From Narcine bancroftii (Eukaryota), in NCBI RefSeq assembly GCF_036971445.1, contig NC_091473.1, forward strand, positions 205,840,001-205,904,000: a stretch of 64,000 nucleotides of DNA. The letters run 5' to 3'. Of the stretch, positions 11,708 to 59,830 are shown one piece after another (position 1 is the first letter of the stretch; each line of letters begins with the position of its first letter). The notes beneath the pieces are model-generated. The model was not told the DNA's origin, ran no database searches, and was given only the letters and a program-made list of their open reading frames with translations. The translations under genes were made by a program, and so were the position numbers.

Positions 11708-12049
11708 GACATTGTTGATGGGACGCCGTTTCTCAGACACTGTGACCACAGCGACTGAAGGAGATGATGCGAGGTTGAGCTGTAACTATACAGTGACAAG
11801 TGAAAGTAATCCTGGATTAATATGGTACCGTATGTATCCTCTATGATCAAAGGACCTTTTGCAGGTTAAAACGCAAAGTGATGGCAAAAGGAAGAAAATT
11901 CCCGGAGAAAGTTTTTCGGCTGACCTGGATATTTCAAAGGGAATGATTCTGCTAACCATATAGGAAACGCAGCTGGGGGATGTGTCCATGTTTTATTATG
12001 CTCTCAATTCCACACTGGTACGGAACTGAGTTGACACTATTCATAATGT
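11708..12049 (+). pseudogene. TCR V pseudogene with degenerate RSS (different family from the intact V)
   Basis: After a TTTCAG acceptor: ..DAVSQT (frameshift) TVTTATEGDDARLSCNYTVTSESNPGLIWYRMYPL*..FSADLDISKGMILLTI*ETQLGDVSMFYYALN. It has stops and the 2nd Cys has become Tyr. CACACTG at 12011-17 is followed by 23 nt and TCATAATGT. Confidence 0.85.
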
Positions 12050-12186
12050 AGTAGAACATCTCGTCGTGCATCAACGCATGAACGGCTCTTTGAAAATGAT
12101 TTGCTTTTCCTTTCATGGTCAGAAACCGAATGGATGACTTGGAATGATTATCAAATTTTACCCGACTGAGAAAATCACATTTATCA

Positions 12187-12575
12187 GATTACAGATTCAG
12201 TTTACTGCCATGTAATAAAACAACAAAGGACTATCACTCGAAACTGTCTTTAGTCTGCCATATGTGAAACCAACATTAGGTCATTAGCAATAGCATCCCC
12301 GGCGACCTGACAGTGAGCGCAAGGGATGCTAATGAAAGTCCCTTCCAAGGTCACCATAACTCCAGCCCAGTTCAAACCATCAGAAACGGGAGCACAGATC
12401 CAAACGTCCACCATGAGGAGAATGTCTTCAGGGCCCTTGAGTCTTCTGGATTCCTCCTTGCCCTCAGCTTCACGTTAAATCCTCGTTCAGATACCAAGTT
12501 TCCCTAAGTCATTCTCCAGCAGCCCCCAGCACCTATGAGTCATTTCACCCCAAGTCGCCAGTAGCCCGCAGTTTG
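12187..12575 (-). repeat. Non-coding interspersed repeat, same family as 58040-59090
   Basis: The reverse complement shares GACTTG.GG.GA..., GCTGCTGGAGA and GTTT.CTGATGGTTTGAACTG with the 58.4-58.6 kb region. Confidence 0.45.
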
Positions 12576-13582
12576 TGTGTATTCATTGCCCGAAAGTCTC
12601 CATCACCACCTTCAGATTTTCTTCATACGCAGAAGGCATCACTGATCTGTCAACCTTGCTACTCAATCTGAAAAGGGATATTCTCCCTCTTATTACTTCT
12701 CTGCGCCATTCCGCTGCACTCCGTTATTTGAAAACCTCTTGTGTCCTCTGTCGACAACAGCCGCCGTCTCCTAAAGCCCCGACTCCATGGTTGAAAGATT
12801 TTAAAATATAACACAATCAAAGCATTTATCAGGCTCTTGAAACCATTCCTGGAAACGCAGCAGTCGATCTGTGTGGTATGACCCCGTGCGCGATTGCTGT
12901 TACTTTGTTCCCCACGAGTCTGCCCCAGTGGCAGCACTGTCATTACACAAACCCCGGAAGTGCCATCTGTACATCTAAATCCGGACTCATCGATACTTGA
13001 GGAGCTAATTCCAAATCTTAGTGGTGCGTTTGAATAATGGGAGTGATCTCCATCATCGCCTCCCCCCTTTTCTCATCCGAAGTTATACCCTTGTTCCTAG
13101 CCCTTGACATTTGGAACAATTTCATTATAATTAAAACAATTACAGTATTGGTAAAATACGACTCAATAATTTGTAAATTCATTCTACCAGTCTTGTCTAT
13201 GTCCGCAATTTTTTTGGCCTTTGAAATATACATCCCCATTTAACCTGTTTAATTGACTGTAACTTCAACCTTATTTTACAGTGCATGACACCGCAAACAT
13301 CTGTGACGAATGATTGGTTGTAATGGCACCGGAAGGATGTGAATTTCACTCCTTATTACATCATCATTTGGCACACATAGTGTGGACAGCGAGTTAATTT
13401 TTCAGGGAAGAGCTTCGCTTCTCCTGTCAAAGTTGCTAGATTCCCATCCCATTTTGAAAACAAATTCCTGTTCACAAACCGTGCACTCCTTAATCTCTGA
13501 AGTCTAGATCTTATTTACCATGATGGGAAACAATTATACGTTATGCAGTGTAAATAAAAATTACTCTATCCGTTCAAAATAT

Positions 13583-14110
13583 TGTGAAATAATAGGTGTT
13601 AACAATCACTAATCTGGAGAAAAAGTCTTGGAGAACAAGTTCAGCTTTTTTTCGAGTCTGCAGAGTCGGGTAGTCCTGGTCTGGTGACGCACCGGTTGTT
13701 CAGAATCATCACTCTTTTGTACAGTCCCGCACTCAACATCACCACACCTTCATTTCCTCTCTTCCAATCTGAATCTCAATACATTACAACCTTCTCCTTT
13801 GCCCTTCCATTACTGCAGATACCGCACAGTACCTCCCACATCATACATCGCATGTTATGCTAATTTGTCCATCCCCTTCTTTATGGCATCTAAGTTAATA
13901 TTCATGTCTTTATTAAGCAAGTGCAGTTGTTGCCATGGGTACCTTAGGTCACCGTGCCAGTCTGAACCAGATTCCGGCATCATTGAGACTTCTAATAAGA
14001 AGGAACCCACTAGCTAGTACGGTCTACACTCAAGCTCTAATCTACATACTTTGCATTCCATCACTTGTCACAGAATGTGAAAGTTTAAACACTTCCAGCC
14101 ATATTTCACA
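13583..14110 (-). mobile_element. Solo LTR of the ERV2 family (528 bp) with a perfect ATAT TSD
   Basis: TGTGAAAT...ATTTCACA termini; the reverse complement is colinear with the LTRs at 26349 and 31713. ATAT occurs at 13579-82 and 14111-14. Confidence 0.88.
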
Positions 14111-17100: not shown

Positions 17101-17342
17101 TAAAGAACATTACACGGATTTTTAGACACCTCACTGCTTCTCACGCCATTGTCTCTATCAAGCCACGGGGCAGGAAAACTTTTGTGGAAAACGTCTTTCA
17201 CCGCTTTGTTCGATATCTCTGAAGTTTAAGAACGACCTGATGTTACATCGAGCTTATCATTCGAGAAAGCACCAGGGAAACTGTTGGATCTTAGATTTAG
17301 CAAGAGTGTCTTGTTATGTATAATGGATAAATCCACTATCGG

Positions 17343-19193: not shown

Positions 19194-19478
19194 GGAGAAA
19201 TAGAGAGAGAACGGAAGATGGGAGGGACAATGTCACAGAGAGAGAAAGGTAGAATCAGAAAGATAAATATTTAACTGAATATATACCGAAAAGATGATAC
19301 ATTGAAATAACGCACATATTGATTGGTGACTTTATGAACTCAGCTCCATTTATCAGTATTCCTGCAGGTGAACTTCGCCCTCTGTCTGCCGCTAATATGA
19401 CATTGCTCTCCAATATCGCTGAAGTGGTGCTAAGTTCGTCAAAGGAAACAGTCTTTAGATTGCGCCTGCCTCGGTACC

Positions 19479-19782
19479 ATGTGTCCCGTGTGTTGGTTCC
19501 TGATGATATTGACCACACTTCCCGGTGAGTTTTTGTCGAATTGTTCACCGAATTCCCCACAGGTTCAACATGCCCGTGGATTGTTCATTCATTGTGTCCT
19601 TTGTTGCACTAACGAATGGGATATATTCTGTGATGCCAAACCCTCGTGAAAATATGAATGACGAAGGAGAGAACATTAGAATGAACTGTACTTTCACGTT
19701 AGCAAATGAATATTTTTATTACATTCAACATCGCGCGAAATCTCCAAAATATGCACTAAAGATGTATAGTTTTCATCTTTAA
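19479..19782 (+). pseudogene. TCR V pseudogene, 3'-truncated (leader 19479-19524, exon from about 19610)
   Basis: The 46-nt leader MCPVCWFLMILTTLP+G has a GTGAGT donor; the 85-bp intron ends in CAC instead of CAG. The exon TNGIYSVMPNPRENMNDEGENIRMNCTFTLANEYFYYIQHRAKSPKYALKM aligns to FR1-FR2 of the intact V. No FR3 or RSS is present. Confidence 0.8.
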
Positions 19783-20400
19783 ACTTTTGATTGCTAACCA
19801 TTTGGCGCATGAATTGTTTCCTCTCACTTTCAGCCCACCTGTCCTCTCAGTTTTTTCCATCTTTTTCCTGCACTCACATTTTCCTCTAACTGCATTTGTT
19901 TCTGTTCCCTAACTTTTCTCTTTTATTGTTTAGTTTTGAAAAAGATTAATGGCTTGGTGTAATCCAATGCATGATTTAGAGTTTCAAGCAGAACATTTAA
20001 CAGTGCTAATTTGAAGAAAAAGAGCAGAACAGACCGTTAAGTCAGTCACGAACGGAGAGGAAAAATCTGTCTTTTTCTCTCTCTTGGGTCGGGCTGTGGG
20101 CAAGGGAATGTGCTCCCATTTTAATCGTAATTATCATATCTATAATATGAAATGATAATTCAGTTTCACATTCTGTAGTTGATAGTGGTCTGTTCATTAT
20201 TAAATATAATTTTTATTACTCATATTTCCTGGAGAAAAGTTTAATTTCAGCCTTATACTGCACAGTAAGGGCAGGAGATGCCAGAAATATTAACTTAACT
20301 TTGATTGCTAAGTGATATACTAGACATGTAATTGTGATCCCCATTGTTTCGTCCCCTGTGGCTTGCATTATCTCTCTAGGCCTTATTTTTTCCCACCCAC

Positions 20401-21257
20401 TGTTCCGAATCCAGAGGACACCAAAACACAGCAGCAATAAATATTCATCATGATAAATAGTTACTTAAACAAATGTTGCTTTTAATGATTTTTGAATGTG
20501 AAAATAGAAACAAACTTTAACTTATCTCTATTGACTTACTTAACCTTCCTCTAATTCCAGGTGCAGGCGTGCGTTATGTGGGTTTAAGATTAGAAAGGTT
20601 CATTGATTCACAGCCCAATCCAACTGGTTGCAGGCAATTCTTGTACTGTGCACGGACGTTAACATTAATAAAGTTCACCAGGCTTTGGTGCTTAACAGGT
20701 TATCACTCAGGAGATTTCTTGCTGATTTTCAGAGAGAGGGATAAAGAGAGAGATTGCTCGTTCCAGGACATCCACAACTGATACCTTTTTAATCAGCCAC
20801 TCGAGTGTCTTGCTGATGAAACTTTCCACCTTCAGTGTTCTCCAGATTATAACCTGTTATTTTTCAGGTCATCTATTCCAAGGGAAACACTGGGCAGCTA
20901 GTCCTCTACTTTGATAAGAACTTCTTCTAAAGCATGCAAGCTTTTTTGTTTAGAACGAATATCTGTGTGTCTCCTATCTCTCTCTCACCCCCTCCAACTC
21001 TGAGAGTAAAGCCGATTTTTCTGCTCTGTGACTGCCAACTTCACATGACCTTCCAGACAATAAATATTTTTCTAGACATAACTGCTGCTGCCTGTTGATA
21101 CATTTGTTGCGGTTTGCAAATAACAGTGCATTATGAATTCTCTGAGAATTCTGCAAAATCTCTTTGCAAAACCTGTATTTTAAAGAGTTTTCGTGGAACC
21201 TCCTCTAACAAACCTTTCCAAATTGATTTCCCAAACACCTCTATGTACTCTGTCATA
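20401..21257 (-). mobile_element. Solo LTR (family B, second copy)
   Basis: Shares TTGCAGGCAATTCTT.TACTGTGCAC and AAAGTTCACCAG..TTTGGTGCTTAACAGG with 17898-18625; flanks CCAC/TCAC. Confidence 0.7.
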
Positions 21258-21259
21258 TC

Positions 21260-23430
21260 ACATTAGTCGTTTTGTATTGGCTGTGTTACTACCATTATAA
21301 ATTCGTCCCCCTTCTCTTTCTAACTGGAATATGAACGGACCGACCCCTTTTCTGATATATCATTACGTTTTTAACTCCATCATATATTTGCCTGGCCAGC
21401 AATATTCTGGCCTACTCCTCAATTCCTACCTCTTTTCTTTGAGTTGAGCAAGTTACTGTCCAATTGAAATTTCTACCCTTAATCTTTACCATACTTCGGA
21501 CACAAATAACATATTGGCTCTCCCGGGATCCATACATCACTCATTTCTTTCTCCAAAGGAGAGATTACTTCTGATTTATCACACACTTGTGCTATGTTCT
21601 CCATTTGTTCGTCTGCACCCACTTCAGGGTCCTGACCTTCGCATGGGGGATTTCCCCTTTTAAAAACCAGTCGAAGGAAGGACGTCAGAACTAGGACAAC
21701 ACGTTATGTTGGATAGTACATTTATCCACTCACCGGGCAAATCCTCAAGCCCATATACTCTGTGTGCTCAGGGGCGACATTCTGGGTTCATCTGGAGTCC
21801 ATCAGGAAGCGAAGGATCAGTTGATCTAACACCTTAAGAAAGTATCCCATGGGCCCGTTCCTTAGTCTTTAGAATCTAGTCCAACTGGTCACTGATAACA
21901 TCCAGTAGGCATTCCTTAATCAAGACTCCTGTCTGGTTTGTCAAATGTTGTATTGAAACTGGCGCTTCCCAATGCAAAGAGCTCAGCACACAGTGCATGT
22001 ACAGTAAACTCATTATTTGACACCAAGTTCACCTAAGAGGACCCATACAGCTTTCAGTCACTGCTGGTCTCTATTAAATAAAGGGATGCACAAAATTCTA
22101 TACATTCGATAAAACAAGTTAAACTAAACGATTCAATCATTATTCTATATAAAAGGTTAATTAACATTACATACAAGGTAAATCACACCCTACATATCCT
22201 CCTCCCCTATACCCCGGTAACAAGGTAGAATAATAAGTACACTGAGTTATATTTATTCCACATAAGGTTGGTTTCTTTTCATGATTTCCCTCGACATCAA
22301 GCTGTTTGTCCAGTTTAAAAAAAACTTTATTCTTTAGTTATCTTCACTGCCTGACACGCTTAACCCAGTCTCTCTCATGTCGTGAAATCCTTCACTATCT
22401 CTCTTTTTTTTCTCGCTTTTCGGATTTACCTTTAGACTTAATTTTTGATTCGTACTTTCAATTCATAACACATGTTTATATGGAAGTTACCTTCCTTTGG
22501 CCATTTTGCTAACAATTTTGCCGTTCTTCTTTCCCATTTTCAGAGGTATTTACAATATAGTTTTTAAATACTGCGAACGGTCTGCTTAATATCTCAACTG
22601 CACTTGCTTTACTCATTGTATTATTTTGTTCAGCACAGTTCGTCATTCAGTCCAGTCGAAATCATTATTTCTGTCCTGTCTCTTCTTTTCAGTCACGATG
22701 CTATTTTTACACCACTTGTATTTTCTCCAGTACAATACTAATTTTCCCTAACAATTTGAGGTTTTATATTATCTATTTGGTCCGATTTTCTTTAGTTTAC
22801 ATGTTCTTCCCGTGCAGTCCCCTATTTATCGAGGACAGTATCTGCAGAACGTCGAATCCTGCTCGTGCAATCCTCTATTTACCTAGGCCGGTAGTCGCCG
22901 GATGCCACTCCCGCTTAGACCCCTATTTACCTCGAGCGTTATCCAGGAGGACAAACCCACTCCACGTGGAATTTTCTTCAATCAAACTCTATCCCTTATT
23001 TCTACTAATCCCACAACACAGTTTTCCTTATCAATTGTCCGAGCCTCCTACAAATTCAATTTGTCAGCTAGTTATATCGGATCAGAGAGATATTCTGATG
23101 TCATATGGCCCTTCTATGTCCCAGGAGACCATCTAATTCCCAACAGATTTTAGTCCGAATTTAAAATGAAAACCGCTCAAATTTTTTTGCGAGTGGCCAC
23201 ACTTTATCTGTTGGTTTGGAAAAGATCCCCGAGGGGCTGGGAAGCGTTCTCGACCAGCCACCCCTTTTCTGATGACTCTGTTTCCGATCCTGCTGGCAGT
23301 GCCAAATATGTGGTGGTTTGCTGAGGTCCAAAAACAAGTTCAGACAACGCGGAGGATTCTTTAGCAATGCTTACTCTTTATTCGCAAGTTAAAGTTTTGA
23401 CAATTTAAAGCCTGGACTCTTAAACGCCCG
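21260..23430 (-). mobile_element. Probable heavily decayed retroviral gag-pro remnant
   Basis: Purine-rich minus strand and a protease-like YLIETSS near 22070; otherwise weak. Confidence 0.35.
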
Positions 23431-23504
23431 TTTCTACGAGAATTCATTTGGATAAACAAAGGATATGCAGGCATCTTGCATTTCACCTACCAATGGGATT
23501 AATC

Positions 23505-23520
23505 AACATCACGTCATGTG
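23505..23520. promoter_or_regulatory. CRE-like motif in the V promoter
   Basis: TCACGTCA at 23509-23516, about 120 bp upstream of the leader ATG, with a CCAAT just upstream. CRE-like elements are typical of TCR V promoters. Confidence 0.45.
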
Positions 23521-23635
23521 AGATGGAAACGCCCCTTCGACTTGCCAAAACAAAACGAGCTCCTGATCTTCCTTCCTGTCACCTATTTGATCCGACACAC
23601 ATCAGCTGGTCCAAGTTGTTGCCAGACCAGATACC

Positions 23636-24072
23636 ATGATCTCGCTCTGGCCCACATTGATGATATTGTTTGAATTCGCCGGTAAGTCTTTATTAAAATG
23701 AATATTGTGACGACCGTGACTTCCACGTCAGACAGGTTACCAATAACTTCTGTTATATGTTCCAGACGTGTATGGCGATACATCAATGTTGCAGTTTCCG
23801 CGTGAGCTGGTGGCCGAAGAAGGAGAAACTGTGAAACTAAATTGCAGTTATCCGGCATCATACGCTGGTTACACTGCGTTCTGGTACACTCAGTATCGCA
23901 GAAAAGCACCAAAATACCTACTGAAGATTTTGCCCTCGAGCAACATACATCGGTCCCATGGAATCTCAATGAAGTTTTCTGCTGTCTATCAGAAAGAAAT
24001 TCGGTCGATTCCTTTAACAATCACAGATGTCTGTGTGTCTGATTCTGCTGTGTATCTCTGTGCCATGAGGCC
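23636..24072 (+). CDS. TCR alpha/delta-type V gene segment, apparently intact (leader exon 23636-23681, intron 23682-23765, V exon 23766-24072)
   Basis: The 46-nt leader is MISLWPTLMILFEFA+G, followed by a GTAAGT donor and a TTCCAG acceptor (phase 1). The V exon reads DVYGDTSMLQFPRELVAEEGETVKLNCSY...AFWYTQY..KAPKYLL...LTITDVCVSDSAVYLCAMRP. It has the conserved Cys, Trp and Cys, no stops, and is followed directly by an RSS. Confidence 0.93.
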
Positions 24073-24110
24073 CACACTGCGAAAAAAAGCAGCAGACCTG
24101 AACAAAAACG
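24073..24110 (+). promoter_or_regulatory. Recombination signal sequence (23-class RSS, 22-nt spacer)
   Basis: CACACTG (24073-79) + 22 nt + ACAAAAACG (24102-10); consensus is CACAGTG/ACAAAAACC. Confidence 0.9.
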
Positions 24111-26880
24111 CACCATGGAAGATCCAGCGTTTCCAACAGAGGGGGCACTCGCACCCGAGTACAGAGGTCATCCAACTAAGAAATCACTAAACACATATTC
24201 TGCAACCATTTCCAATTCCAAATCAAAGATGTGAAGATACGATTAATATATTTGAAGTACTATTTCATTCTATCAACAAGATGAATTCTCTTCAGCGTTT
24301 GTGCATATATAACTGTTGAGCTAGATATTTCTACAGGAACAATAGGCCTTAGAGCGCCTCGACGATCCTGTTTGATTCTTTCATGGGGGGATTAATGTAT
24401 AAAATCTGAAATAACTGACTTAAAAAAATGAAAGTATATTATAAACTTCCAAAACGTACCTGTATACTTTTGGATCAGACAGCGAGAGAAAGGAAAACGG
24501 CAAGAGACAAAGAAAAAAAAAATGAGTAATGATACAAAGAAAATCGAAGAAAAACAACCTTGCTTGAAGATGCAGCCTGAACCTTAGGTTGCTGAACCTC
24601 TTGGAGTGACACACGTGATGACATCCTTTTTCCATCTTAAGGCAGCGACACCTCCTGAGATAACCAGGGAGGGAAGGTTAAGCCAAATCTCTCCAGAAAC
24701 TTGCAGAAGTTTATCCTCGTGCATGCGCAAAGGAGACGCATGACAGCGCCATTTCCATTTTTGCTCGAATTATGGAACTGGAATCTGATATAGAAGAGCT
24801 GCAGGAACACCTGTTGCTTTGACAGCTGGTAATCAACGGAAAAAGGAAGATCAAGAAGAATTGGATGAAGATGAATAAGATGATGAAGTGGAAGTGATGT
24901 ATGCTTCTGAATTTGAATGCCGATATATAATGGGAAAATATCATGTTATAAGTGCTTATATTAGAAATGTCAGATGTGATATGAAGAACATTAAAAGTGA
25001 CATGTTTAAACATACCTCACAAGTTAATAAAGATAAAGCAACACTTCAAAGAGTTGACCTGAATGCGAAGATTGTGAAATGATATGGATATCTGCATGGC
25101 TAGAATTGACAGTCTCAAAAATTCGGATTCTCTCTGGGAAAAGCAGAGGAAAAAAAATATTGAAAAGATGGGTATGTGGGAAAATCAAAGTAGACAAAAC
25201 AAGTACAAATTACTTGGTCTTGAAGATGATTTTGAAGGAACTGAAGATCCTGTGGAACGATTTTCAAAAGTGGAATCCCAGCATTATTGAAGATAATTTT
25301 CAAATTGGAATTGAATTGGAAAGCACTCATAGAGCTTTACGGAGGATGCCATAGTCAAATCAAATTGATTAAGTGTCTGCGATACCAGGACAAAGAAAAT
25401 ATCTTATTACTCGCAGTTCAAAAAGCAAGACAAAATATATGTCAAATTGTTATTGATGGAAATAAAATTTAAATAAGGCGGTGGTGGATAAAGAAAAGAA
25501 TTTAATCCAGTGAAAGCGATTTTTCGGAAGAAGGGTTTTTAGTTTACTTTCAGACATCCAGCTACTTTAACGATTTTGTTTTGGCAATGAAATACTCAAG
25601 TTTGTTTGTAACGCGAAAGACAATCACTTCCTACATTTATAGACCAGCAGGAATTGCTGAAAATGCAAATCACACCGAAGACGGCCGTCACGAAACAAAC
25701 TGTGCTGTCAATAAGAGTTGCAATTGCCTACGGAATCTCAGAGTGATACAAACGTAAATTGATGATGATCGTGAAATTGCGGANNNNNNNNNNNNNNNNN
25801 NNNNNNNNNNNNNNNNNNNNNNNNNNNNNNNNNNNNNNNNNNNNNNNNNNNNNNNNNNNNNNNNNNNNNNNNNNNNNNNNNNNNNNNNNNNNNNNNNNNN
25901 NNNNNNNNNNNNNNNNNNNNNNNNNNNNNNNNNNNNNNNNNNNNNNNNNCGTTTGATGTTTTTCTAACTTCCTTGACCCGTTATGTGCCATATTGAGGCA
26001 GCACCCATACTGTGAAGGGAAGTAGAGCTATGTTTTATTTACTCAGTACGCTTTGAGTGGTATTTATTTTTATCTTTATATATAATTTGTTTGTTCATGA
26101 ATTATTAATTATGTTCTTTTAAAACATCTTTATTTTGTCCTACGAGACAGAGACGATCAGGAACTGATTAGAATTGATGAAGGAGACCTTGAAGAATGGG
26201 ATTGGAAGAGAATTGGATCTAAGACAATGGATGAAAACAATATATTAAATTTTCTTAGTTTTCATGTGAATGGGTGACTAATACAATGAAAACGAAATGA
26301 ATATGAAATCGTATGAAAAAGATGAAATAGATGCTGGATTGCTACGACTATGAAATATTGATGAAAATGATTAAATTCGCACCATTCTGTGAAAAGTAAT
26401 GGAATGCAAAGTATGTAGATAAATGCTTGAGAGTAGAAAGTACTGGAAAATTTCCCCCTTCTTATCAGGAGCACCAAGGATGCATGGATCTCTTTCAGTC
26501 GGGTACAGTGACCTAAGTTAGATTATAGCTAGTACTGCGCTTGGTTAATAGAGACATGAACATTAACTTAGGCGCCCTTAAGTATGGATTGAACTAATTA
26601 ACATAACATGTGATGTATGAAGAGGGAGGAACAGTGTGATAACTGAATTAATGGAAGGGAGAAGGAGAATGTTGTAATGTATTGGGATTCTCATTGAAGA
26701 AAGTAAATGAAGGTGGGGTGGTATGAGCGCGTAACTGTACAAACGAGTGATGATTCTCAACCTCCGGTATGTCTCCAGACCAGAGGCACCCCACTTTGCC
26801 GTCTCGAAATGAAGCTGAAAATGTTCTCCAAGATAATGTCTCCAGAGTAGTGACTGTGAACACTTTATATTTCATAAGCT

Positions 26881-33600: not shown

Positions 33601-34819
33601 AAAGGAAGATAGAGATTTAATGAGACCAATTTCATAATTAAATATTTTATTATAAAATAATAGATAAAATGTTAGGAAATAGATTGGCAAAATATTTATC
33701 GAAGTTAATACACATAGATCAAAATTGATTTGTTAAGGAGCAGAAATCTGCAGATAATTTGTTTGATTATTTTATAAACAAAGATTGATTTTTTTATACC
33801 TTTAGTTTACAGGATGGGAATACTGAGTGTAGCAGTGCTTTTAAATGCTGAGAATGAATTTGATAAATTAGAATGAGATTTGCTCTTTAAAGGTTTGGAG
33901 AAATGTTAATTGGGATCAATGTCTATAGATTAGGCTAAACTGTTATATAATAAACCTTGTCTGAAGGTAGTGACTAATGCTCAAATTACAACATCTTTTG
34001 ATTTAACTCGATCAAGTAGGGAAGTTTGTCCACTGTCACCAGCTTTACTTGTTTTAGCAATAGAATATTAGACTGAATTAATAAGTCAGGATTCCAAGAT
34101 TTTGCGTATTAAGATAGATCAGGATGAACTTTAAAATAAATTTATTTGCAGATGATGTTTTGATTTATTTAACAGATCCTTTAAATTCTTTACAACAACC
34201 TAAATTCAGAATAAAATAAAAGCGAGGAATATCTGGTGATAATATTAATTGAGATAAAAGTGGAATTATGCCTTTAGTTAATGGGATTGTGCAAAATGTA
34301 ACAAACTAATTGAATTTAGATGGTCAGATGTTGGAATAGAATATTTAGGTTTTCGTGCACAACCAGATTTAACAACATTACTTAATTTGTATTATTTGTC
34401 CTTATTAAATAAAATTAAAGAGTATTTGATAAGATGGAATATGTTATCTATTACGTTAAAAGGTAGAGTAAATTGTGTTAAGATGAATGTTTTTCATCGA
34501 ATACAAAAATTATCTTAATCAATTCCAATTGAAATTCCTCAAAACAAATGTAAGGAATTAAATGTCGGTTTTACAATGTTTCCATGGGAAAGAAAAATAG
34601 CAACAGTTTCTTTGTTAAATGTAACATGGAAATATGATTTAGCAGGTTTACAGTTCCCCAATTTTATGAATTATTATAAATATGCCCAGTTGATATTAAA
34701 GAATGCAATGTATGGTTTCAATAAAATTCCAGCATGAGTGAATATAGAAATGAATGACATTGGGGTAATAAATCCTCAAGAATTCATTTATAAATGGAAT
34801 CCAAGATTGTTAATCCTTT

Positions 34820-37700: not shown

Positions 37701-38253
37701 GTGACGAGCATATCTTCCAATGTGAATATGCATTGTACCTTTAATCCTCTGTATTAGAATACATCTCAGATTCCATTTCTTGACTGTGTACTTTCGGAAT
37801 ACGTGTCACCTCCCAAATATACATCTCATATTCTGAATTAAACCATCTACCTTTCAACTGTCCACCAGCCCAACCGTTCAAGATGAAATATTTGGCAAAT
37901 GTCTTCACAATCTAAAATTCCAGACACTTCAGATTCATTCAGAAATTTCATAATCCCGACACGTACAGTTTCAATTAAATGATTGACGTAGATGATAAAG
38001 AGAAATGGTCCCTGCACATAAGCAAATATACAAACTACGTCACCTCTAAGCTATTACCCAATTACATACTGGAGAAACAGCATTTCACAGAAAGAGAAAA
38101 TTGCTCGGTCATATCAGGGACTGGAACATATTATAAAGAATCACGTCTCTTCCATTAGGTCCGGCGGTAAGCACAGTGTTGAGACACTGATCCTTAGTAA
38201 TAATTTCAATGCTCCACAGTGCTTTTCTCCAAAAACGCCTCCTGTGGGAACCT

Positions 38254-38530
38254 AAGTTTTGTTTCAGTTCCGGATTTGTAAATTTCTGTGCTTTGCTGCA
38301 TGATCGTACGGCGATGCGCCAGTTGAATAATGGAATGTTAGAATGAACTGCAGTTATCCATCAGCAGTTATTGACGAGACTGTTATTTGGTACATTTGGT
38401 GAACTGAAGAATAGTCAAAATATCTTCTTGAGGTATTGAGTAATTGATTTGAAGAGCGATCACGATTCTCTAGTCTGGAGTTATGCTGGTTATCATAAGA
38501 GTTTCAGTTTATTCCTTAAACTTTCTCTGT
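38254..38530 (-). pseudogene. Possible highly degenerate, inverted V remnant with RSS-like end
   Basis: The minus strand reads ..SSITADG*LQFILTFHY.QLAH.AV..HAAK, then CACAGAA + 21 nt + ACAAAACTT. The fit requires frameshifts. Confidence 0.35.
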
Positions 38531-38991
38531 GATCCTTGTATTTGATGTCAAAGTGTTTGTGTGTGTGCCATGACGCCGGGAAGCAGCGGGTCCGAACATC
38601 GACCAAAACCCGAGAGTTCAAGCGAGCAGTCACCAGAAGTGACACTTCCAGGTCTAAAGACTAGTGATCATACGTAGAGCAAGTTTCTTCTGTTTATACC
38701 TGAATGAACATGGAATTTCATCGTTTTTTCACGTCCAATTGGTTTCAAACTTAGGAGAAGATATTCTTTGATTCAACCAATCATATTCTGTAGCTGGTAA
38801 ATGAATGACAATGCAAGAGATATTTTGGAGTATGAAGGATATTGTACCTATTGTGCAATACGGATGAGGTGTTAGTGTTGGATGCTTGAGCCGACTGGAA
38901 TGAAGAAAAGATAAAAGTGGAGTGAATATTCCATCGAGATCTAAACGAGACTGATAGAATCCAGAAATCTTTTTTTTTCAGATTAGATACA

Positions 38992-39037
38992 ATGATTTCC
39001 CTCTTGTCCATTTGGATTATAATGCACGTTTTACGTG
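38992..39037 (+). pseudogene. Orphan TCR V leader exon
   Basis: 46 nt, MISLLSIWIIMHVLR+G, then a GTGAAT donor. The context CAGATTAGATACAATGATTTCCCTC resembles CAGACCAGATACCATGATCTCGCTC of the intact V. No V exon lies at the expected ~85 bp distance. Confidence 0.7.
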
Positions 39038-40047
39038 GTGAATTCATGTTTCGAAGGCATTGTTTGTATTATCTTCCTGAGTGCTCAGAGTTTAAAATTA
39101 ATTATAATACCTTTATTGTCAATCGTATTGTACAATATACAAATGTGCAAATACATATATTCGTATTTGGTGTAATCCAAAGCCTAGCTGATGAGTAAAC
39201 AACAGTATGCATTAAAAATTGTAAATAGATAATAAATACGAAAGATAAGTGAATAATAAATATTCATAATTACCATCGTGCAATAACATAAATGGGTTAC
39301 AATAGTTTCTGAGAAATGTTGTTGACATCTTTGGCGATCATTCAATGAATCAGTTGAAAGCCGAAGCAGGAAAAAGTGTAACATTGTATTGCCATTTTAT
39401 GGTAGATCCAGTATCCGGGAGAATCAACCAAACATTGACTATGGATATTCTGCAGAGCTGTCAGCTGATCTCATAGCCAGGTATGCTTTATATTATCTTC
39501 ATAATTCCTGTCTTCGACTTTGCCACGCATCATTGAAGGTCTTTGAATTGCCTCTATTTTTCATTCCTTTCTTCTATTGTTAGAACCCCGGGCAATGCTC
39601 ATGACAACACTTCGTTTGGCTTACATCAGACAAAAGTTGGAGTATATCACATTTTTACGTGGTAATATGTGAAAGTAAAGGGAACATTTGAAACCAATAC
39701 TGTTGCAGATCAGTCGTGGTTTCGACCAAATTGGAACATCAAGACAGGCCACCGAGAGACCAACACTTGCTTGATAAACAGAAGTACCTGCCTTTCTGCG
39801 GCAAGTTACAATTTCCGTGCACTAATTAGTTGCACATTGCAGATAACAATGAACGTACTATCACTAGCTTTTATCAAGTATATCTGTTCATCAACAAAAA
39901 CTGTTATTCATAGTTTACATATATTTATGCCCCTTCCACAAGATGTCCAGAACTCACTCACTTGCGACATTTCAAGGAAAGCAACAGAATTATTATGAGC
40001 AATTAACTTATTGGCATTCTTATCTGGGTAACTACGTCGTTATATGT

Positions 40048-42176: not shown

Positions 42177-42521
42177 GAATAGAGAAACATCATACTGAAA
42201 TATTTAATTAAGATTTGGAATAAAGTTCATGAAGAGATTGGAGGAGAAGAGTTAATTTCAAGAAGATCACCGTTATTTCAGAATAAATTTATTCCACTTT
42301 CTATGGGAAATCAATTTTCAAAGATTTGTAAACATTATGGCATTAAGAAAATTGAAGTTTGTTTTGTAGCTGGGATATTTATTACTTTTAGTAGAATGAT
42401 TGAAAATTGAAGGTATTTCAAAATACTCGATTTTGTTATTATCCAATTAAAAGATTTTTATCTCAAAGTGTTGGTCAAGATTCAATATGACAAACAGAAA
42501 GAGGGGCAGAATTTTGTTATT

Positions 42522-45500
42522 TCAAGTATTATCATTTTCTCTTACATCTATTCTCTGTAATAAAACAGAATTCCACTGAAATACAAATTGATGTGAATAA
42601 GATTCAGATATACCAGCCATTCCTACCCTGACCCAACTAGGGCTGCACGAAACATCCAGCCGACGATTAATAAATCTTAATTGAGTTGCTTCATAATAAT
42701 TTTGAAAATGAGGTAATTGTAAACCTCCCAAAGCATATTTACAAGTCAATATATGTATCGCTACTCTGGCTTATTTTCCCTTCCATAAAATTTCTCGAAC
42801 TACTTTCTTTAAATCCTGAAAAAAGATTCCAAAAGTAAACAAGGAATCGACTGGAAAAGATACTAAATTCGCGGAAAGATACAAATTACTCGATCTATTA
42901 ATGACAAATCTATTAATCCTTCTATTTTATAAAATCCACGTTAATCTTTTGCATTAATGGTACATCGTTTAAATTATGCAATGATTGAATATTGACATCA
43001 ATCATTATCCCTAAATACTTAATTTTATCAGTCCAACTGCGAATGGTAACTCATCTACATTGGTCATAATTTACCTCAGAATTTGGTAATATTTTACTTT
43101 TATCCCAATTCACTTTATATCCTGATAATTTACTATATTGTTCTAAATATTCTTGCAAGTAAATTAAAGATCCTACCGGATTAGTTACATATATCAAATC
43201 GTCATCAGCAAAATAATTAATTAATCGTCTATTACCCTTACACCTCTAATATTCTCATTCTGACTACTAGCTTGAGATAACGGTTCAATGACCAATGCAA
43301 ATACAGCTGGTGACAAAGTACAACCTTGACGAGTTGAACGCAATAATTTAAGGAAATATTTGGTTTGACCAGTTTTCGACGCCCAAGCAACGGGATTATT
43401 ATATAATGCCTTCATTCAACCAATAAAAGGTCCAAAATTATATTTCTCCAAAGCCTTAGATAAAAAATTCCATTAGACCCTATCAAAAGCCTTTTCAGCA
43501 CCTGGAGCAACTACCATTGGTAGGTTAGATATGAAGCGTTGGTCAGCGAAATCTTTCTAAAAGTATTGTCAGAGGCACACCTATCCTGAATAAAACCAGC
43601 CTAATCAGCATGTACCAATTGTGGTAAATACTTAGCAAGTTTACTCGCCAAAAATTTCGTTATTATTTTGTAATCTACATTTAATAAAGATATTTTCCGA
43701 TATGAAGCTACATTCAAAGGATCTCTATCGTTTTTGGTATTACCATTATTACTGCACTTCGACACGAGTCTCGTAAAGCTTTCACTTGTGTTACCCGATC
43801 AAGTACATCCATAAATAATGAAGACAAATCATCATAAAAAATTATAAAATTCAACAGTAAATGCATCATCTCCTGGAGATTTCCCGGTAGGCATTTTTTG
43901 AATAACATCCTTTATTTCTAAGTCTGTAAAAGTAGAATCCAGTTTCCTCACATCACCTTCCCCTAATATTTGCAAATTTAATTCTGACAAAAAAGATTCA
44001 ATGGAACCATCATCTCGAACCCCCTCAGAATCATATATTGACTAGTAAAATGATAAAAATTGGTCATTGATTTCCTGAGGTTTAAAAGTAAATGGGCTAT
44101 CCTTTGTCACAGCATTAATAGTTCTCGATGCTATTGTTCTGTTTTCAACTAGAATGGTTGGGGGAGGGAACAAAATAGAACAGAGCAGTAAGGAGAAGGT
44201 TAGAATGCAAACAAAGAAAGTTTGTAGTAAGTATTGAATATGGATGGGCATGTGATAGAGAAGGGAAATGCTCTGGAAGAAGTTGAAGGGCAATTGGCAG
44301 GAAAAGTAAATAATGTTGTTATTAAAGATGAGGGAAAACAGGGATTAAAAATTGGGATATCTCTGAAATTCATATATTTAAATGGCAGGAGTATTGTAAA
44401 AAAGGTGGATGAGCTGAAGGTGTGGATTGATACTTGGAAGTATGATGTGGTAGCGATTAGTGAGACATGGTTGCAGGAGGGATGTGATTGGTAACTGAAT
44501 ATCCCTGGGTTTCGTTGTTTTAGGTGTGATAGAGTCGGAGGGGCAAGAGGAGGTGGGGTTGCATTGCTTGTCAGGGAAAATATTACAGCGGTGCCTAGGA
44601 ATCATAGATTAGAGGGCACATCCACGGAGGCTATTTGGGTGGAACTGAGGAGTAGGAAAGGAGAGGTTACACTTGTAGGGGTGTATTATAGACCACCCGG
44701 AGGGGACCGAGACCTAGAGGAGCAAATCTGTAGGGAGATAGTAGATATTTGTGATAAGCACAGGGTTGTAATTATGGGAGATTTTAATTTTCCACATATA
44801 GATTGGGAAACACATTCTGTGAAAGGACTGGATGGGTTAGAGTTTGTGAAATGTGTGCAAGATAGTTTTTTACAACAATATGTAGAGGTGCCGACGAGAG
44901 AAGGAGCAGTGTTAGATCTACTGTTGGCAAATGGGATGGGTCAAGTGACGGAGGTTAGTGTTGGCGAGCACTTCGGGTCCAGTGATCATAATGCCATCAG
45001 CTTCAATGTCATTATGGAAAGAGAGAAATCAGGGCCAAGGATTGAGGTTTTTGATTGGGGAAAAGCTAGATTTGAGGAGATGCGAAAGGACTTGCAGGGT
45101 GTGCATTGGGACAATTTGTTTTATGGGCAGAATGTAGTAGAGAGATGGAAGTCTTTTAAAGATCAGATTTTGAGAGTGCAAAAGCTTTATGTTCCTGTTA
45201 GGTTAAAAGGAGGGGCAAAAGGTTTGAGAGAACCGTGGTTTTTAAGGAATATTGGAAACTTGGTTCGAAGAAAAAGGGAGCCGTACATTAGATATAAGAA
45301 GCATGGAGTTAAGGAGATGTTTGAAAGATACATTGAATGTAAGAGGAATCTTAAGAGAGGAATTAGGAAAGCTAAAAGAAGGTACGAGACAACTATGGCA
45401 AGCAGGGTGAAAACTAATCCAAAAGAGTTCTACAAATATGTTAATGGTAAGAGGAAAGCTAGAGACAAAATTGGTCCCTTAGAAAATCAGTGCGGAAAAC

Positions 45501-48500
45501 TGTGTGTGGAGCCTAGAGAAATGGGGGAGATATTGAACAGTTTCTTTTCTTCGGTATTCACTAAGGAGAAGGATATTGGGAGATGTGAGATTAAAAAAAG
45601 CAAATTGGGTAAATATGGGGAATATAGAGATTACAAAAGGTGTAGTTTTAAGGCTTTTGAAGAATATAAAGGTGGATAAGTCTCCGGGACCAGACGGGAT
45701 CTTCCGCAGGACATTGAGAGAAGTGAAGGAGGAAATAGCAGAGGCTCTGGCGGTAATTTTCCAAATGTCATTAGATATGGGGATAGTGCCGGAGGATTGG
45801 CACATTGTGCATGTGGTTCCGTTATTTAAAAAGGGTTCAAAGAGGAAGCCTGGCAACTATTGGCCTGTAAGTTTGAGGTCTGTGGTAGGTAAATTAATGG
45901 AGAAAATTCTTAGAGATAGTACATAAACATCTGGATAGACAGGGTCTGATCAGGAGCACTCAACATGGATTTGTGGGAGGAAGGTCATGTTTGACCAATC
46001 TGATTGAATTTTTTGAAGAGGAGGCTAGGAATGTGCATGAGGGTAGCGCAGTGGATGTTGTCTATATGGACTTCAGTAAGGCCTTCGATAAGGTACCACA
46101 TGGAAGGTTAGTTAGGAAAGTGCAGTCTTTAGGTATAAATTTTAAGATAGTCAAATGGATTGAACATTGGCTGAAAGGGAGAAGCCAGAGAGTGGTAGTG
46201 GATAATTGTCTGTCAGGTTGGAGGCCAGTGACCAGTGGTGTGCCTCCAGGATCTGTATTGGGCCCATTGTTTTTCGTTATATACATTAATGATCTAGATG
46301 ATGGGGTGGTGAATTGGATTAGTAAATATGCAGACGATACTAAGATAGATGGAATAGTGGATAATGAAGAAGGTTTTCAAGGATTGCAGAGGGATTTGGG
46401 CTGCTTAGAAAAGTGGGCTGAAAAATGGCAGATGGAATTTAATGCTGATAAGTGTGAGGTGCTTCATTTTGGTAAGAAGAATCAAAATAGGACATACGTG
46501 GTAAATGGGAGAGCATTGAGGAATACAGAAGAGCAGAAAGATTTAGGAGTGACGGTACATCGTTCCCTGAAGGTAGAAACTCACGTGAATAGGGTGGTGA
46601 AGAAGGCTTTTCGTATGCTGGCCTTTATCAATCATTGCATGGAATATAGGAGTTGGGAGGTGATGTTGAGATTGTATAAGACGTTGGTGCGGCCTAATTT
46701 GGAGTTCTGTGTGCAGTTCTGGTCGCCTAATTATAAGAAGGATATAAACAGAGTGGTGAGAGTGCAGAGAAGGTTTACCAGAATGTTACCTGGGTTTAAG
46801 CATCTAGAGTATAGGGAAAGATTGGACAGATTAGGTCTTTATACTTTGGAGCTTAGAAGGTTGAGAGGGGATTTGATAGAAGTATTTAAGATTATGAAAG
46901 GGATAGACAGAGTGGATGTGGATAGACTATTTCCGTTAAGAGGAGGAAAGATTAAAACAAGAGGACATGAGTTAAGAATTAAGGGGCAGAGGTTTAGAGG
47001 TAACATGAGGGGGAACTTCTTTACTCAGAGAGTGGTAGCCGTGTGGAATGATCTTCCGGGAGAAATAGTGGCGGCGGAGTCAATTGTATTATTTAAGAAA
47101 AGGTTGGACAGGTATATGGATGAGAAGAAGATGGAGGGTTATGGGCATTGTGCAGGGAAGTGGGACTAGAAAGGGGTGTTTGGTTCGGTGCGGACTAGAA
47201 GGGCCTAATGGCCTGTTTCCGTGCTGTAATTGTTATGTTATGTTATGTTAATTGCCAGACTAAAACCTTATGGGCTCTGTCCCCAACTAATAATAACGTT
47301 GCTTAGATCTTTGAATCAAACTTGCAAATTGATATGTTTGTAGTGTATTATATCGTATCTTCAATTTAGTCAAAGCTGCCTTATTATCCTCCATACAATT
47401 CCTCTGAGATTCTTTTTCCAAATCAACTATCTGTTTTTCCAGTGACCCAGTCTTCACCAAAAATTTCTTCTTTTCCTTTGATGCATAGCTAATAGTTTGA
47501 CCACGTAAAAACGCCTTCAAAGCATCCCATAAAGTAAAATTACTCTGAACTGTATTCAAATCAAAAAAAGAAACAATTTGATCCTTAATGAATTTTACAA
47601 ATTCCGTTTTTTTCAATAACATTGCATTAAACCTCCATGGAAAAAAATTGATTGAATTACTTCCGGCCCAAAACAAGAAATATATAACAATGAATGATCA
47701 GAAATTATTGAACTCTTATAGTCAGCTTGAATAAAACGAAATTGCAAATGTGCTGATGCGAAAAAGAAGTCAATTCTTGAAAATGAATCATGACTCGAAA
47801 AATAAACTGAAAAATCTTTTGCAGTAGGATTTAACCATCTCCAAACCTCTATCAAATTTAAGACTTCCATCAAATATTTTGATTTTTTAAAGATTTTCTG
47901 AGATTTATCCAATAATGTATCTAATACACAATTGAAATCTTACCCAATCAAAATATTTTCTTTAGCAGGACTTAGAGTTAAAAAAGCTTCAGGCACAAAT
48001 TGTTCAATGCATTTTCTTGTGAATCAAAATCGCCACTGCTCTTGCTTTCGAATTGAAAGAAGATTTAATTAATTGAACAACCCAGTCTCTCTTCAATTTT
48101 AAATGTTATTTTTCAGTTAAATGAGTTTCCTGCAAAAAAGCAATATCGACTTTCATTTTTTAATATAGACTAAAACACGTTTATGCTTAATAGAGTTACT
48201 TAAACCCTACACAATAAATGTTGCAAAATTCAAACTAGACTTTGTTATCAGAATAAAATAATAAACCCTCCTTCTATTTCTTCAATGCACAAAAACATCC
48301 TATCCTTAATAAGAAAAATTAAAGCTCCCCTTGCTAAATAGCCCCTAAATGAAACAGCCATTAAACACACCCCAAACAAAATAAAGCTAACACAAAGAAA
48401 TGTTTTTCTTGAAAAAACGTAGAAACTACAAAAGTAGTAACTCCCCACTTAATTGGGTGTGTAAATAAATATAATACCCCCACAGGTGGCGGATGAATTT

Positions 48501-51840: not shown

Positions 51841-52107
51841 GACGACTTTGCCGATGTTTCAATAACTTAGAGACACTTCAGATGACAGCCAAAGAAGGGA
51901 AAACTGTAAGGCTGAATTGCAGTTACCCTCCTGCCCTGATAGCCCACACCGTTTAGTAGTACATCCTATATCCTGATGAATTATGCAGATATCTACTACC
52001 GAGCAGTCAGATGAATTCAGATCCAGTTATTCTTGATTTCTGTTTGAAATAAACGTTAGAGATCTTTTTTATTATCTCTGACTCCGCTGTCTCCGACCTT
52101 GCCACAT
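51841..52107 (+). pseudogene. TCR V exon remnant (no leader, no RSS)
   Basis: DDFADVSIT* (frameshift) LQMTAKEGKTVRLNCSYPPALIAHTV**YILYPDELCRYLLPSS...IISDSAVSDLAT is a clear paralog of the 23.8-kb V. The conserved Trp codon is now TAG. Confidence 0.8.
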
Positions 52108-57115: not shown

Positions 57116-57720
57116 ATATCCTTCTTCTGCTCCATATTGATTATTATTCCGCGTGCTCCAGTAAGTGTTTGTTTTAATGGACCCTGTGGTGACCGTGGCT
57201 TCGGTGGTCGTCCACATCGCTCATTGTTTCCACATTTTATTTCCAGTTGTCAAAGGTGCTGATTGAAGCACCGAACAAGCGCCTGAGCTGTCTGCCGATG
57301 ATTGCCAAACTGTAACATTGAATATCAGTAATCCTGCACATTATCTAGTTATACTCTATTCAAAAATATTCAATATCCTTGGCATTAAAAATTAAAACAC
57401 GAAAGTCTGCAGACACAGTGTTTGAAAAAAATCCAAAACAAAACATAATGCTAAAGAAACTCAAATGGTCAAACAGTATAGCTTATCCAGCAAAGATTTA
57501 AAAAAATATACACAGCCAACGTTTCAGTCTTGAGTCTTGAATTAAGGGAGGAAAACCGATATTCACTAAATATGTTACCTTCTTGGTCCGGAGACCGGGC
57601 ACTTGTGTTTACAGCCAAGTGTTCGGCTATGAATCGATTGTTTCCGTCTTTATCTCAGCCGTGCATGTGTTCCATGAACCCCACACCACGGCAGAGAAGC
57701 AACAAATCTGAAGAAAATAA
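57116..57720 (+). pseudogene. TCR V pseudogene with a ~170-bp insertion in FR2 and a degenerate RSS
   Basis: The leader 57116-57160 has ATG->ATA; the GTAAGT..TTCCAG intron of 86 bp resembles the intact V intron. The exon reads VKGAD*STEQAPELSADDCQTVTLNISNPAHY.SYTLF..QYP [insert ~57385-57555] RYSLNMLPSWSGDRALVFTAKCSAM..CSMNP. CACACCA (57682-88) is followed by 23 nt and AGAAAATAA. Confidence 0.8.
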
Positions 57721-58039
57721 AACCCTGAGGTTCGAGCGAGAACCCACGAGCGGTTCTTCTCTCCCCGGTAAACAGAAGTATTGCAAGTGAAAAATGCATT
57801 TGAGCTTTCAGCATGTACGATGCAAAGCTTCTCATCTAAGGAGCAGATAATCAATACTCCCGACGTTCATCACTTCATTTAAAGATGGTGTCGGGAAGTT
57901 ACAATGAGTTTGCAAGAGGAGAACATTTGGAAATTAACTGCATAAACAAGTTATCTGATGCTGAACTTCATAGAAGACAGAGGTTGAAATGAGGGTGGAG
58001 ATAAAAATGATGGTGCTGTCGAAGCCTCAGTTACGGCAG

Positions 58040-59090
58040 CGCTACAATGTTGGTGCGGTCCCACGAAGAGCCGGAAGCTGCGACACAGCACTCTTGCGGG
58101 GTCCAACCCTCCAGAGCAGTGCAGGCTTTGAATGGGCCGTTAAAAGAGCCGACGGTGGGTTTATTTAAAATAGCGCAATCGCGGGGTCTGTGCCCATGTT
58201 GGCGACGGGTTTGATCTGCAGTCACCAGGGGTGCAGATTCCAGGGAGGCAGAAGAGTTTTTCATGACACCATAAACCGGCGCCATTTGAGCAGGAGAAGT
58301 AGAGGAAATGTCCTACAGGATAGTGGCCATGGTGGCGGGTCATTGAGGGGTTCTGCGGTTGAAGGAAGCACATAAGCAGCACGCTTCCGCTGACTTGAGG
58401 CGAGGAACCCACAGAGGCTTTGGGTTGCTGGAGACAGCAGTCAAGGGCTTAGCACTAGGTTGTGAAATGCTGGAAATGGGGTTGAAATTGGCTGAAAGGT
58501 TACCAGGTATTGGAACCAGGATTCAAGAGGGGGATGAGTCCGCTGGAGGGTTCCGAATCATATTGGAGGTTTGGATTTGAATCTCAGTTTGCTGATGGTT
58601 TGAACTGTAATCATTAACTGTGTTAATCCTGCGGCATGAGATTGTGGCAATGCCTTCTGTTAGATCAGGTATCATTGAGAAAAATTATGCAAATAGAATC
58701 TTCAAACTAACCTGCACACCTCACCGAAAATGCCCACCCGCACTGCTCCAATTTGTTAATTCTATCAATGAATTTGTCCGTCAAAATGTTTAATTAAATT
58801 TCCAACAATACCACCCCAGTTACCCCATTGCTCCATTCACCCACCACACATGGTTTATTATGTATTATGTGGCTGCGGAGGCTGCGGTGCGGCTGGATGC
58901 GAATGCACCAACATTTAGAGACTCCAAGTGAACTCTTTATTTCTTACCTTTCTTAGTCAGGCTGTAATAGGTGATTCAGGATGTTTTTGCCGGTGACGAA
59001 TCTATCCGATTACAGCAGTCAACATCAATTTTGTGAAATACTACGCTGTTTTATTACGTGACGATAAATTTAATATTGAATTATGAATCT
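58040..59090 (+). repeat. Non-coding interspersed repeat (SINE or non-autonomous-like)
   Basis: Homologous to 12187-12575; ends in an AT-rich TGAAT-type tail. Confidence 0.4.
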
Positions 59091-59681
59091 TAACTCTCGA
59101 ATCTATTGAATTGGATCCTCATAGGTGACTTTAATAAACCGTGTGTGTTCTGGGTGAATGTGGGTGAATTTCCTCTGCTTTTCAATCGAATTGCATCGCC
59201 CTGCATGTCCTATTGCTTTTGCGATCAGGAGAAAAATCGCCTTGATTTTTCTAATCCAGTCGTTTTGTTGAAAATTCGAATCACAATGCAACAAATATTT
59301 TGGGGTACAACATTCTTTGTGTCTGTTGTGAATTGCTAAAGAAATATATTGCAGACATTGCAAGAGAATTACATATATTTCACACACTCGCACGCGTGTT
59401 CTCAACACTCAATCATAGCGAGCGAGTGGGAGCTGGGGGGGGGGGGGGCGCGGGAGAAAGAAAGAGAAATGTATGATCTGCGATCAAGCACGGGGGAACG
59501 AGAATCGTATATCCAAAAAATTCCTCATTTGTAAGTGGCCAGGAAATCAGAACCGCAGATCCGCTCATATTCTCGCGTTAAGCAAAGAACCTGCGCCTGA
59601 TCAGTGTCACATTAGAAATATCAAATCCGCAGCAGACACACGGTGATACCTATCCACTCTTCCCCATTTGTTTCCTAATCG

Positions 59682-59830
59682 CTCAACTCTCTCTGGTTGA
59701 CGCTGAAAATGTCATCTGTGTTTCGCGGTGAGACCCATTTTTAATGGATCTGCCGTGCCACGTGTCTTCAGTACAGTTCCAATCTGATCACAGCTTTTGT
59801 GCTTTGTTGCAGGGGACTTTGGCGACGGTT
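59682..59830 (+). pseudogene. TCR V 5' remnant (leader without ATG, intron, first codons), cut off by a Gypsy element
   Basis: A 46-nt leader-like exon (L)NSLWLTLKMSSVFR+G is followed by an 85-bp GTGAGA..TTGTTGCAG intron. The exon starts GDFGD (compare DVYGD and DDFAD) and V homology stops at ~59830. Confidence 0.7.

What the first reader, a model, noticed from the sequence alone, without database searches (positions are those of the whole stretch)
11708..59830. Hidden TCR alpha/delta V array: one intact segment among at least six broken paralogs
Seen: a stereotyped cassette (45-46-nt leader, 84-86-bp phase-1 intron, V exon, CACAC-type heptamer) recurs in whole or part at 11.7, 19.5, 23.6, 39.0, 51.8, 57.1 and 59.7 kb, all on the + strand. 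Only 23.6 kb is open. Known: TCR V loci evolve by birth and death. Inference: this is a probably poorly annotated chondrichthyan TRA/TRD V region with very low functional density (1 per 64 kb). Most remnants are barely visible in an ORF track.
Basis: partly seen in the sequence, partly recalled or inferred. Interest (0 to 1): 0.7.

Follow-up and report, generated by a model that had tools for sequence, protein, structure and literature searches.

The report
T-cell receptor V amid copied fossils
One intact T-cell receptor alpha/delta variable gene piece, likely from a shark or ray, sits among seven broken relatives that were likely already dead when large DNA blocks were duplicated, an ordinary way these immune gene arrays grow.

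Summary
Confirmed and ordinary. The window holds one open V segment (23636-24110: leader, 84-nt intron, V exon, 22-spacer RSS) and seven dead V remnants. All remnants are significant against shuffles. The window lies mid-way in a 1.76-Mb V array. Downstream on the same strand come 3 D, 2 J, a C, 35 J and a second C-like exon: the TRA/TRD layout. RNA contigs show two close paralogs spliced or joined to J-alpha segments. The window's own V has one exact contig but no joint. Two corrections. First, the remnants are not recent broken copies of the intact V. They come from several families. Each recurs in 4-11 positional copies with shared lesions and none is intact, so they likely died once and were multiplied by block duplication, as described for cattle TRA/TRD. 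Second, one intact V per 64 kb is typical of this array (47 open among at least 223 V-like loci). The scan already noted this pattern in a neighbouring block. Its value is as annotation of a poorly annotated elasmobranch locus.

The parts
11233..12017 (+). V pseudogene, family with 52-nt leader and long intron: leader 11233-11284, dead donor, 423-nt intron, exon 11708-12010 with frameshift and stops (11844, 11961), heptamer 12011, nonamer lost
   Evidence: stop at 11844 in 5 of 5 block copies
19479..19765 (+). V pseudogene: intact 46-nt leader and donor, 85-nt intron, acceptor AG lost, exon truncated after about 50 codons
   Evidence: no AG in 4 of 4 copies
23636..23681 (+). Leader exon of the open V segment (46 nt, phase 1)
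   Evidence: junction spliced in RNA contigs of a close paralog
23682..23765 (+). 84-nt GT-AG intron
23766..24072 (+). Open TRAV/TRDV exon (V-set domain with both Cys and the Trp)
   Evidence: 179-nt exact contig in run X1
24073..24110 (+). Recombination signal: heptamer, 22-nt spacer, nonamer (23-type RSS)
38179..38603 (+).
   Evidence: stop at 38517 in 10 of 10 copies
38992..39454 (+). V pseudogene: 46-nt leader, intron enlarged to 287 nt, acceptor AG lost, exon truncated
   Evidence: no AG in 9 of 9 copies
51841..52103 (+). V exon remnant, no leader found, three in-frame stops
   Evidence: all three stops in 6 of 6 copies
57116..57716 (+). V pseudogene: 45-nt leader (start lost in this copy), 86-nt intron, stop at 57264, exon split by an insertion of about 170 nt, decayed RSS at 57682
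   Evidence: stop in 5 of 5 copies
59682..59830 (+). V pseudogene: 46-nt leader without start codon, 85-nt intron, exon cut off after about 30 nt
   Evidence: start codon absent in 11 of 11 copies

Best explanation
The window holds one open T-cell receptor alpha/delta V segment and seven broken V remnants inside a long tandem V array, likely of a shark or ray, and the remnants were likely dead before large DNA blocks were duplicated and carried them along. Shown: the array lies upstream of D, J and C segments in TRA/TRD order. Close paralogs of the open V are spliced or joined to J-alpha in RNA contigs. The window has collinear copies elsewhere in the array, and the remnants share lesions across those copies. 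Inferred: in thymocytes RAG would join the open V through its 22-spacer RSS to a 12-spacer J-alpha about 1.2 Mb downstream by deletion, or to D-delta; the product would then splice to C-alpha or C-delta. Also inferred: the blocks arose by unequal crossing-over and were kept for their one or few working V genes, the dead ones hitchhiking.
For: Protein: Pfam V-set E 4e-12. Most of the 60 best PDB hits are TCR alpha chains, two are V-delta1 constructs and a few are antibody scFvs. Layout: 93 of 99 genome matches lie on C11 205.15-206.87 Mb. Downstream on + come three 12/23-flanked D, two J, a C1-set exon, 35 J with 12-RSS and a second C-like exon. TRA 'TG' end signature (PMC10322711, passages) in 39 of 45 V ends and 29 of 35 J-alpha starts. 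RNA: the 84-nt intron is skipped in one contig in each of 3 runs (one study). Two contigs run from a family V end into J-alpha segments (22 of 22 and 29 of 30 nt match). Blocks: three collinear copies, mostly 85-93% identical, cover 82%, 66% and 60% of the window. The 7 remnants have 43 other positional copies and none is an intact V. Every remnant has a lesion shared by all its copies. The four lineages put in a tree are each one clade (bootstrap 100) with no intact member. The open V's own position is intact in 5 of 8 copies.
Against: No contig shows the window's own V spliced or joined to J; the joined contigs come from paralogs. Its spacer is 22 nt, not 23 (9 of 47 open V share this). Its pN/pS against paralogs is 0.59-0.66. 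Five of the six other pairs give 0.36-0.49; the sixth gives 2.49 on one silent change. Selection on it may therefore be relaxed. The two C exons were named by position: PDB searches gave only Ig constant domains, or nothing significant. The RNA runs are of one study, and their RNA status is a guess by the tool. Gene conversion between blocks could also spread lesions and was not tested.
Confidence: 0.92

Rival explanations
1. Each remnant died on its own after single-gene or block duplication, so the dead copies record many separate losses.
For: Some lesions are private to one copy: stop 11961 in 1 of 5, start loss at 57116 in 1 of 5. The open V's position has been lost three separate ways: a stop, a 1-nt deletion and a deletion of the gene.
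Against: Every remnant carries at least one lesion shared by all of its 4-11 copies. The tested lineages are clades on long stems without an intact member.
Confidence: 0.04
2. The open V is itself a young, non-rearranging relic: an open frame that is no longer used.
For: 22-nt spacer, private substitutions against all intact paralogs, higher pN/pS. Its nearest twin (95%) is frameshifted. No joined contig for this copy.
Against: Leader, splice sites, both Cys, the Trp and the nonamer are intact. The paralog at C11:206,231,000 has the same 22-nt spacer and is joined to J-alpha in a contig. A 179-nt contig matches this copy exactly where the nearest paralog differs at 11 sites.
Confidence: 0.2
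3. The array belongs to an Ig light or heavy chain, TRB/TRG, or a non-rearranging Ig-superfamily cluster.
For: A few antibody scFvs are among the PDB hits, including the top row by summed score. IgH-like clusters lie close by.
Against: The V-D-J-C-J(35)-C order is that of TRA/TRD (established knowledge). No C1 exon was found between the V segments except one decayed inverted exon. V ends join J directly in RNA.
Confidence: 0.02

Closest known systems
Elasmobranch TCR alpha/delta translocon in the antigen receptor complex (PMC12227049, abstract and section 6 read; nurse shark V alpha/delta, PMC5931798, passages read)
   Same: Translocon TRA/TRD with IgH-like miniclusters close by. V segments available to both chains. 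Closest named proteins are from Chiloscyllium and Leucoraja at 41-47% identity.
   Different: Here the whole V array was mapped. The nurse shark paper had only 17 germline V and no complete locus.
Bovine TRA/TRD homology units with 'collateral' pseudogene expansion (PMC4289303, passages read)
   Same: Multi-gene blocks of 15-157 kb replicated repeatedly. Pseudogenes at equivalent places share lesions, so some were dead before duplication.
   Different: Cattle: 138 of 371 pseudogenes (37%). Here 176 of 223 V-like loci are not open (79%), but my count includes deep fragments that an IMGT-style annotation may omit.
Atlantic salmon TRA/TRD (PMC8559430, passages read)
   Same: Large TRAV array with many pseudogenes (123 of 239).
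   Different: Teleost locus with 104 functional V, against about 47 open V here.

Membership tests
TRAV/TRDV gene segment | Leader exon, phase-1 intron, V-set exon with Cys, Trp, Cys | tested here: met
TRAV/TRDV gene segment | 3' RSS of the 23 type | tested here: met
   heptamer, 22-nt spacer and nonamer with one mismatch each; 33 of 47 open V score best at 23, 9 at 22, 5 at 12
TRAV/TRDV gene segment | Upstream of D-delta, J-delta, C-delta, J-alpha array, C-alpha | tested here: met
   3 D, 2 J, C, 35 J, C-like exon on the same strand 1.0-1.2 Mb downstream
TRAV/TRDV gene segment | Constant exons identified as C-delta and C-alpha by sequence | tested here: inconclusive
   first exon is C1-set with Ig hits only; second has no Pfam test at the right coordinates and only weak PDB hits, E 0.075; named by position
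TRAV/TRDV gene segment | Family rearranges to J-alpha in transcripts | tested here: met
   two contigs of paralogs run into J-alpha segments
TRAV/TRDV gene segment | This copy itself rearranges | tested here: inconclusive
   exact 179-nt contig inside the exon, no junction
TRAV/TRDV gene segment | Use with D-delta/J-delta (delta chain) | not tested
   no delta joint seen in the contigs laid; no dedicated test
Fish-type TRA microhomology signature (PMC10322711) | TG at positions 8-9 from the V Cys codon and at the J start | tested here: met
   39 of 45 V with Cys in register and 29 of 35 J-alpha; the window V has it
Elasmobranch IgL/IgH minicluster | Each V followed within kilobases by (D), J and C | tested here: not met
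   no intact C1 exon among the V segments in 1.76 Mb
Non-rearranging IgSF V gene | No RSS; V exon ends in a splice donor | tested here: not met
   RSS present; family joined to J in RNA
Homology-unit (block) expansion of TR loci | Collinear multi-gene copies with shared lesions at equivalent places | tested here: met

The most novel reading that the evidence does not exclude
This is the most fossil-laden TRA/TRD V array yet described: about four of five V-like loci are dead, because a handful of ancient pseudogenes rode along on repeated block duplications. The complete germline map (47 open V, 35 J-alpha) would let TCR-alpha somatic hypermutation, shown in nurse shark, be tested against true germline in a second cartilaginous fish.
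Probability: 0.3. Interest if true: 0.4.

Novelty: new member of a known kind. Interest (0 to 1): 0.2.

Why it matters
Modest. It annotates a T-cell receptor locus in a lineage where automated pipelines label these segments hypothetical. It also extends to cartilaginous fish the cattle observation that pseudogene counts in V arrays are inflated by block copying. The germline list is what studies of shark and ray TCR hypermutation have lacked (PMC5931798 states it had no complete germline locus). The mechanism is not new.

Tried and rejected
The search for homologous proteins found nothing at E 0.001 or better; this is a sensitivity limit of the word search, not evidence. One search was translated in the wrong frame and redone. 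The look-up of sequencing runs listed no holder on record as RNA. Laying the three runs on 19200-25780 at 96% gave cover on a high-depth repeat at 20.1-21.4 kb, the open V exon and low-depth pieces at 24.9-25.6 kb. It gave none on the 19.5-kb remnant or most unique DNA; contigs show presence only, so this is no evidence of silence. PDB searches could not name the constant exons, and the Pfam query for the second C used wrong coordinates. A donor first placed at 59696 was wrong and was corrected to 59728. A mere artefact of collapsed or doubled assembly is rejected for the window: its copies differ by about 7-20%. One stereotyped cassette for all remnants is rejected (11.7 kb differs). Very low density as a special trait of the window is rejected. 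Paper searches listed no gene-by-gene elasmobranch TRA/TRD V census, but most subscription journals are missing from the library. I recall nurse shark locus papers there and did not see them. No supplements were read; Table S1 of PMC12227049 may already list V positions in related species.
Full report
Observation. The open segment reads ATG 23636, 46-nt leader, 84-nt intron, exon 23766-24072, and gives a 117-residue open product. An RSS follows at 24073 with a 22-nt spacer; it is the only + strand hit of the scan. The RSS consensus used in that scan is recalled. The single protein finds remnants at 19.6, 38.3 and 51.9 kb at E 5e-9 to 7e-8. It finds 11.7, 39.3 and 57.2 kb only at E 0.013-0.033, which 20 shuffled windows can reach (best 0.003). 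Better queries settle these. A DNA profile of 7 intact paralogs hits six remnants at E 1e-10 to 1e-21, against a shuffle best of 0.027 in 20. The 11.7-kb remnant matches another family at E 1e-66. Much of the rest is retroelement DNA: long reverse-transcriptase-like frames were recognised by eye, and about 31% of the window matches DNA outside the V core.

Identity. The protein is a V-set domain. Its best solved relatives are mostly TCR alpha chains, with V-delta1 constructs second and third and a multi-domain antibody first by summed score. I looked up 8 of the 150 listed relatives. Three are from Chiloscyllium and Leucoraja (41-47%, named hypothetical or uncharacterized), three from teleosts (one named TCR alpha V), and two are unnamed, including the closest at 56%. 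The window is C11:205.840-205.904 Mb of a 3.3-Gb genome, and 93 of 99 matches lie at C11 205.15-206.87 Mb. I fetched 205.10-207.16 Mb. Downstream on the same strand lie three D with 12 and 23 signals and two J. Then come a C1-set exon at 207.005 Mb, 35 J with 12-RSS at 207.05-207.13 Mb and a C-like exon at 207.130 Mb. This order is that of TRA/TRD (established knowledge). The C exons are named by position only. [quoted passage not shown] The TG end signature of fish TRA (PMC10322711, passages) is present in 39 of 45 V ends with the Cys in register (2 of 47 dropped) and in 29 of 35 J-alpha. Earlier scan notes call this genome an electric ray; I did not test that.

Expression. Three runs of one study hold the sequence; the tool guesses they are RNA. 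In each, one contig skips the 84-nt GT-AG intron. In X1 the listed variants of that contig match the paralog at 206,231,000. One X2 contig of that paralog runs on into the J-alpha at 207,063.5 kb (29 of 30 nt). One X1 contig of the older subgroup, matching no single genomic copy at all sites, runs through 8 unmatched bases into the J-alpha at 207,121.5 kb (22 of 22 nt). The window's own V is matched exactly by a 179-nt X1 contig, where its nearest paralog differs at 11 sites, but that contig spans no junction. So the family is shown to rearrange to J-alpha, and this copy only likely does.

Why so many dead segments. The array holds 223 V-like loci by tblastn, 220 of them on +. Of these, 47 have an open exon plus RSS, in 12 families. 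The script found a leader for 41 of 47, a few doubtfully. A DNA profile adds 111 hits outside that census, some being split pieces, so 21% open is an upper bound. The finder is also strict and may miss a few open exons. The window's one open V is typical: 12 of 28 bins of 64 kb hold exactly one and 4 hold none; the array mean is 1.7 and the core mean 1.4. The window is part of a duplicated block. Three collinear copies, mostly 85-93% identical, cover 82%, 66% and 60% of it, and older copies at about 84% recur about 100 kb apart. At 76% identity or more over 70% of length, the seven remnants have 5, 4, 10, 9, 6, 5 and 11 copies including the window's, and none is an intact V. Shared lesions: a stop in 5 of 5 (11.7 kb); a lost acceptor in 4 of 4 (19.5); stops in 10, 9, 9, 7 and 5 of 10 (38.3); a lost acceptor in 9 of 9 (39.0); three stops in 6 of 6 (51.9); a stop in 5 of 5 (57.1); a lost start in 11 of 11 (59.7). 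Private lesions also exist (1 of 5 at 11961 and at 57116). In a tree of 47 open V and four of the seven remnant sets (39.0, 57.1 and 59.7 kb left out as too fragmentary), each set is one clade at bootstrap 100 with no intact member. The 11.7-kb set groups with families 4 and 6, and the 19.5-kb set with families 1 and 2, not with the window V's family. By contrast the open V's position is intact in 5 of 8 copies; the others carry a stop, a 1-nt deletion, or a deletion leaving only the RSS. I infer seven old deaths multiplied by block copying. Unequal crossing-over, and selection for the working passengers, are inferred; gene conversion was not tested.

Against. The window V has a 22-nt spacer and a pN/pS of 0.59-0.66 against paralogs. 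Five of the six other pairs give 0.36-0.49 and one gives 2.49 on a single silent change. Counts are small, and it may be decaying. The RNA evidence is from contigs of one study.

Comparison. Cattle TRA/TRD grew by homology units of 15-157 kb, with shared lesions and 'collateral' pseudogene expansion; pseudogene shares given are 37% in cattle, 19% in human and 16.5% in mouse (PMC4289303, passages). Salmon has 123 of 239 (PMC8559430, passages). The 79% here is higher, but counts deeper fragments. Nurse shark work lacked a full germline locus (PMC5931798, passages). Searches listed no elasmobranch V census; the library lacks most subscription journals and I read no supplements. The scan's own notes report the same pattern 261 kb downstream, seen after I had reached this reading; they are not independent support.

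Verdict. A real, new member of a known kind; interest 0.2.

Noticed in passing
G000:C11 205285741, 205333207, 205910012 (L037), 206085032, 206189749: All five open V of one family have a nonamer-like motif 12 nt after the heptamer (2 mismatches) as well as one at 23 nt (3 mismatches). This is a possible dual 12/23 signal, more likely a chance feature of the spacer.
   Followed up: partly
G000:C11 206786514-206786792, minus strand (L185): Decayed inverted C1 exon with two stops inside the V array, 34% identical to the C-delta exon (E 1e-6). No J-like motif was found in the 78 kb upstream.
   Followed up: partly
G000:C11 206490531, 206513403, 206910310, minus strand: Three open V segments are inverted. 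The first has an extra Cys in CDR1 and no convincing leader, which recalls the supporting V of NARTCR (recalled, untested). The last is highly divergent and faces the first D.
   Followed up: partly
G000:C11 207063.5 kb (L021), run X2: One base differs between a rearranged contig and the germline J-alpha: allele, error or somatic mutation; one contig only.
   Followed up: no
G000:C11 205.15-205.24 Mb: A young array of about 10-kb tandem units, each with two open V and several remnants; some V exons are identical between units.
   Followed up: no
G000:C11 205755051 (L098): In one block copy the open V is deleted up to its last codons, leaving an orphan RSS.
   Followed up: partly
G000:C11 207.5-208.2 Mb and 215.6 Mb: Repeated multi-exon C1 clusters with identical scores, likely IgH miniclusters; twins on small contigs C138 and C529 may be haplotigs.
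   Followed up: no
window 34819-37305 / 40047-42554 and 5677-7681 / 45236-47236: Internal repeats at 88% and 71% identity over LINE-like frames; a further LINE-like element lies at 52.7-56.8 kb.
   Followed up: partly
window 20300-20900: Short repeat with very high depth in all three runs, likely a SINE.
   Followed up: no
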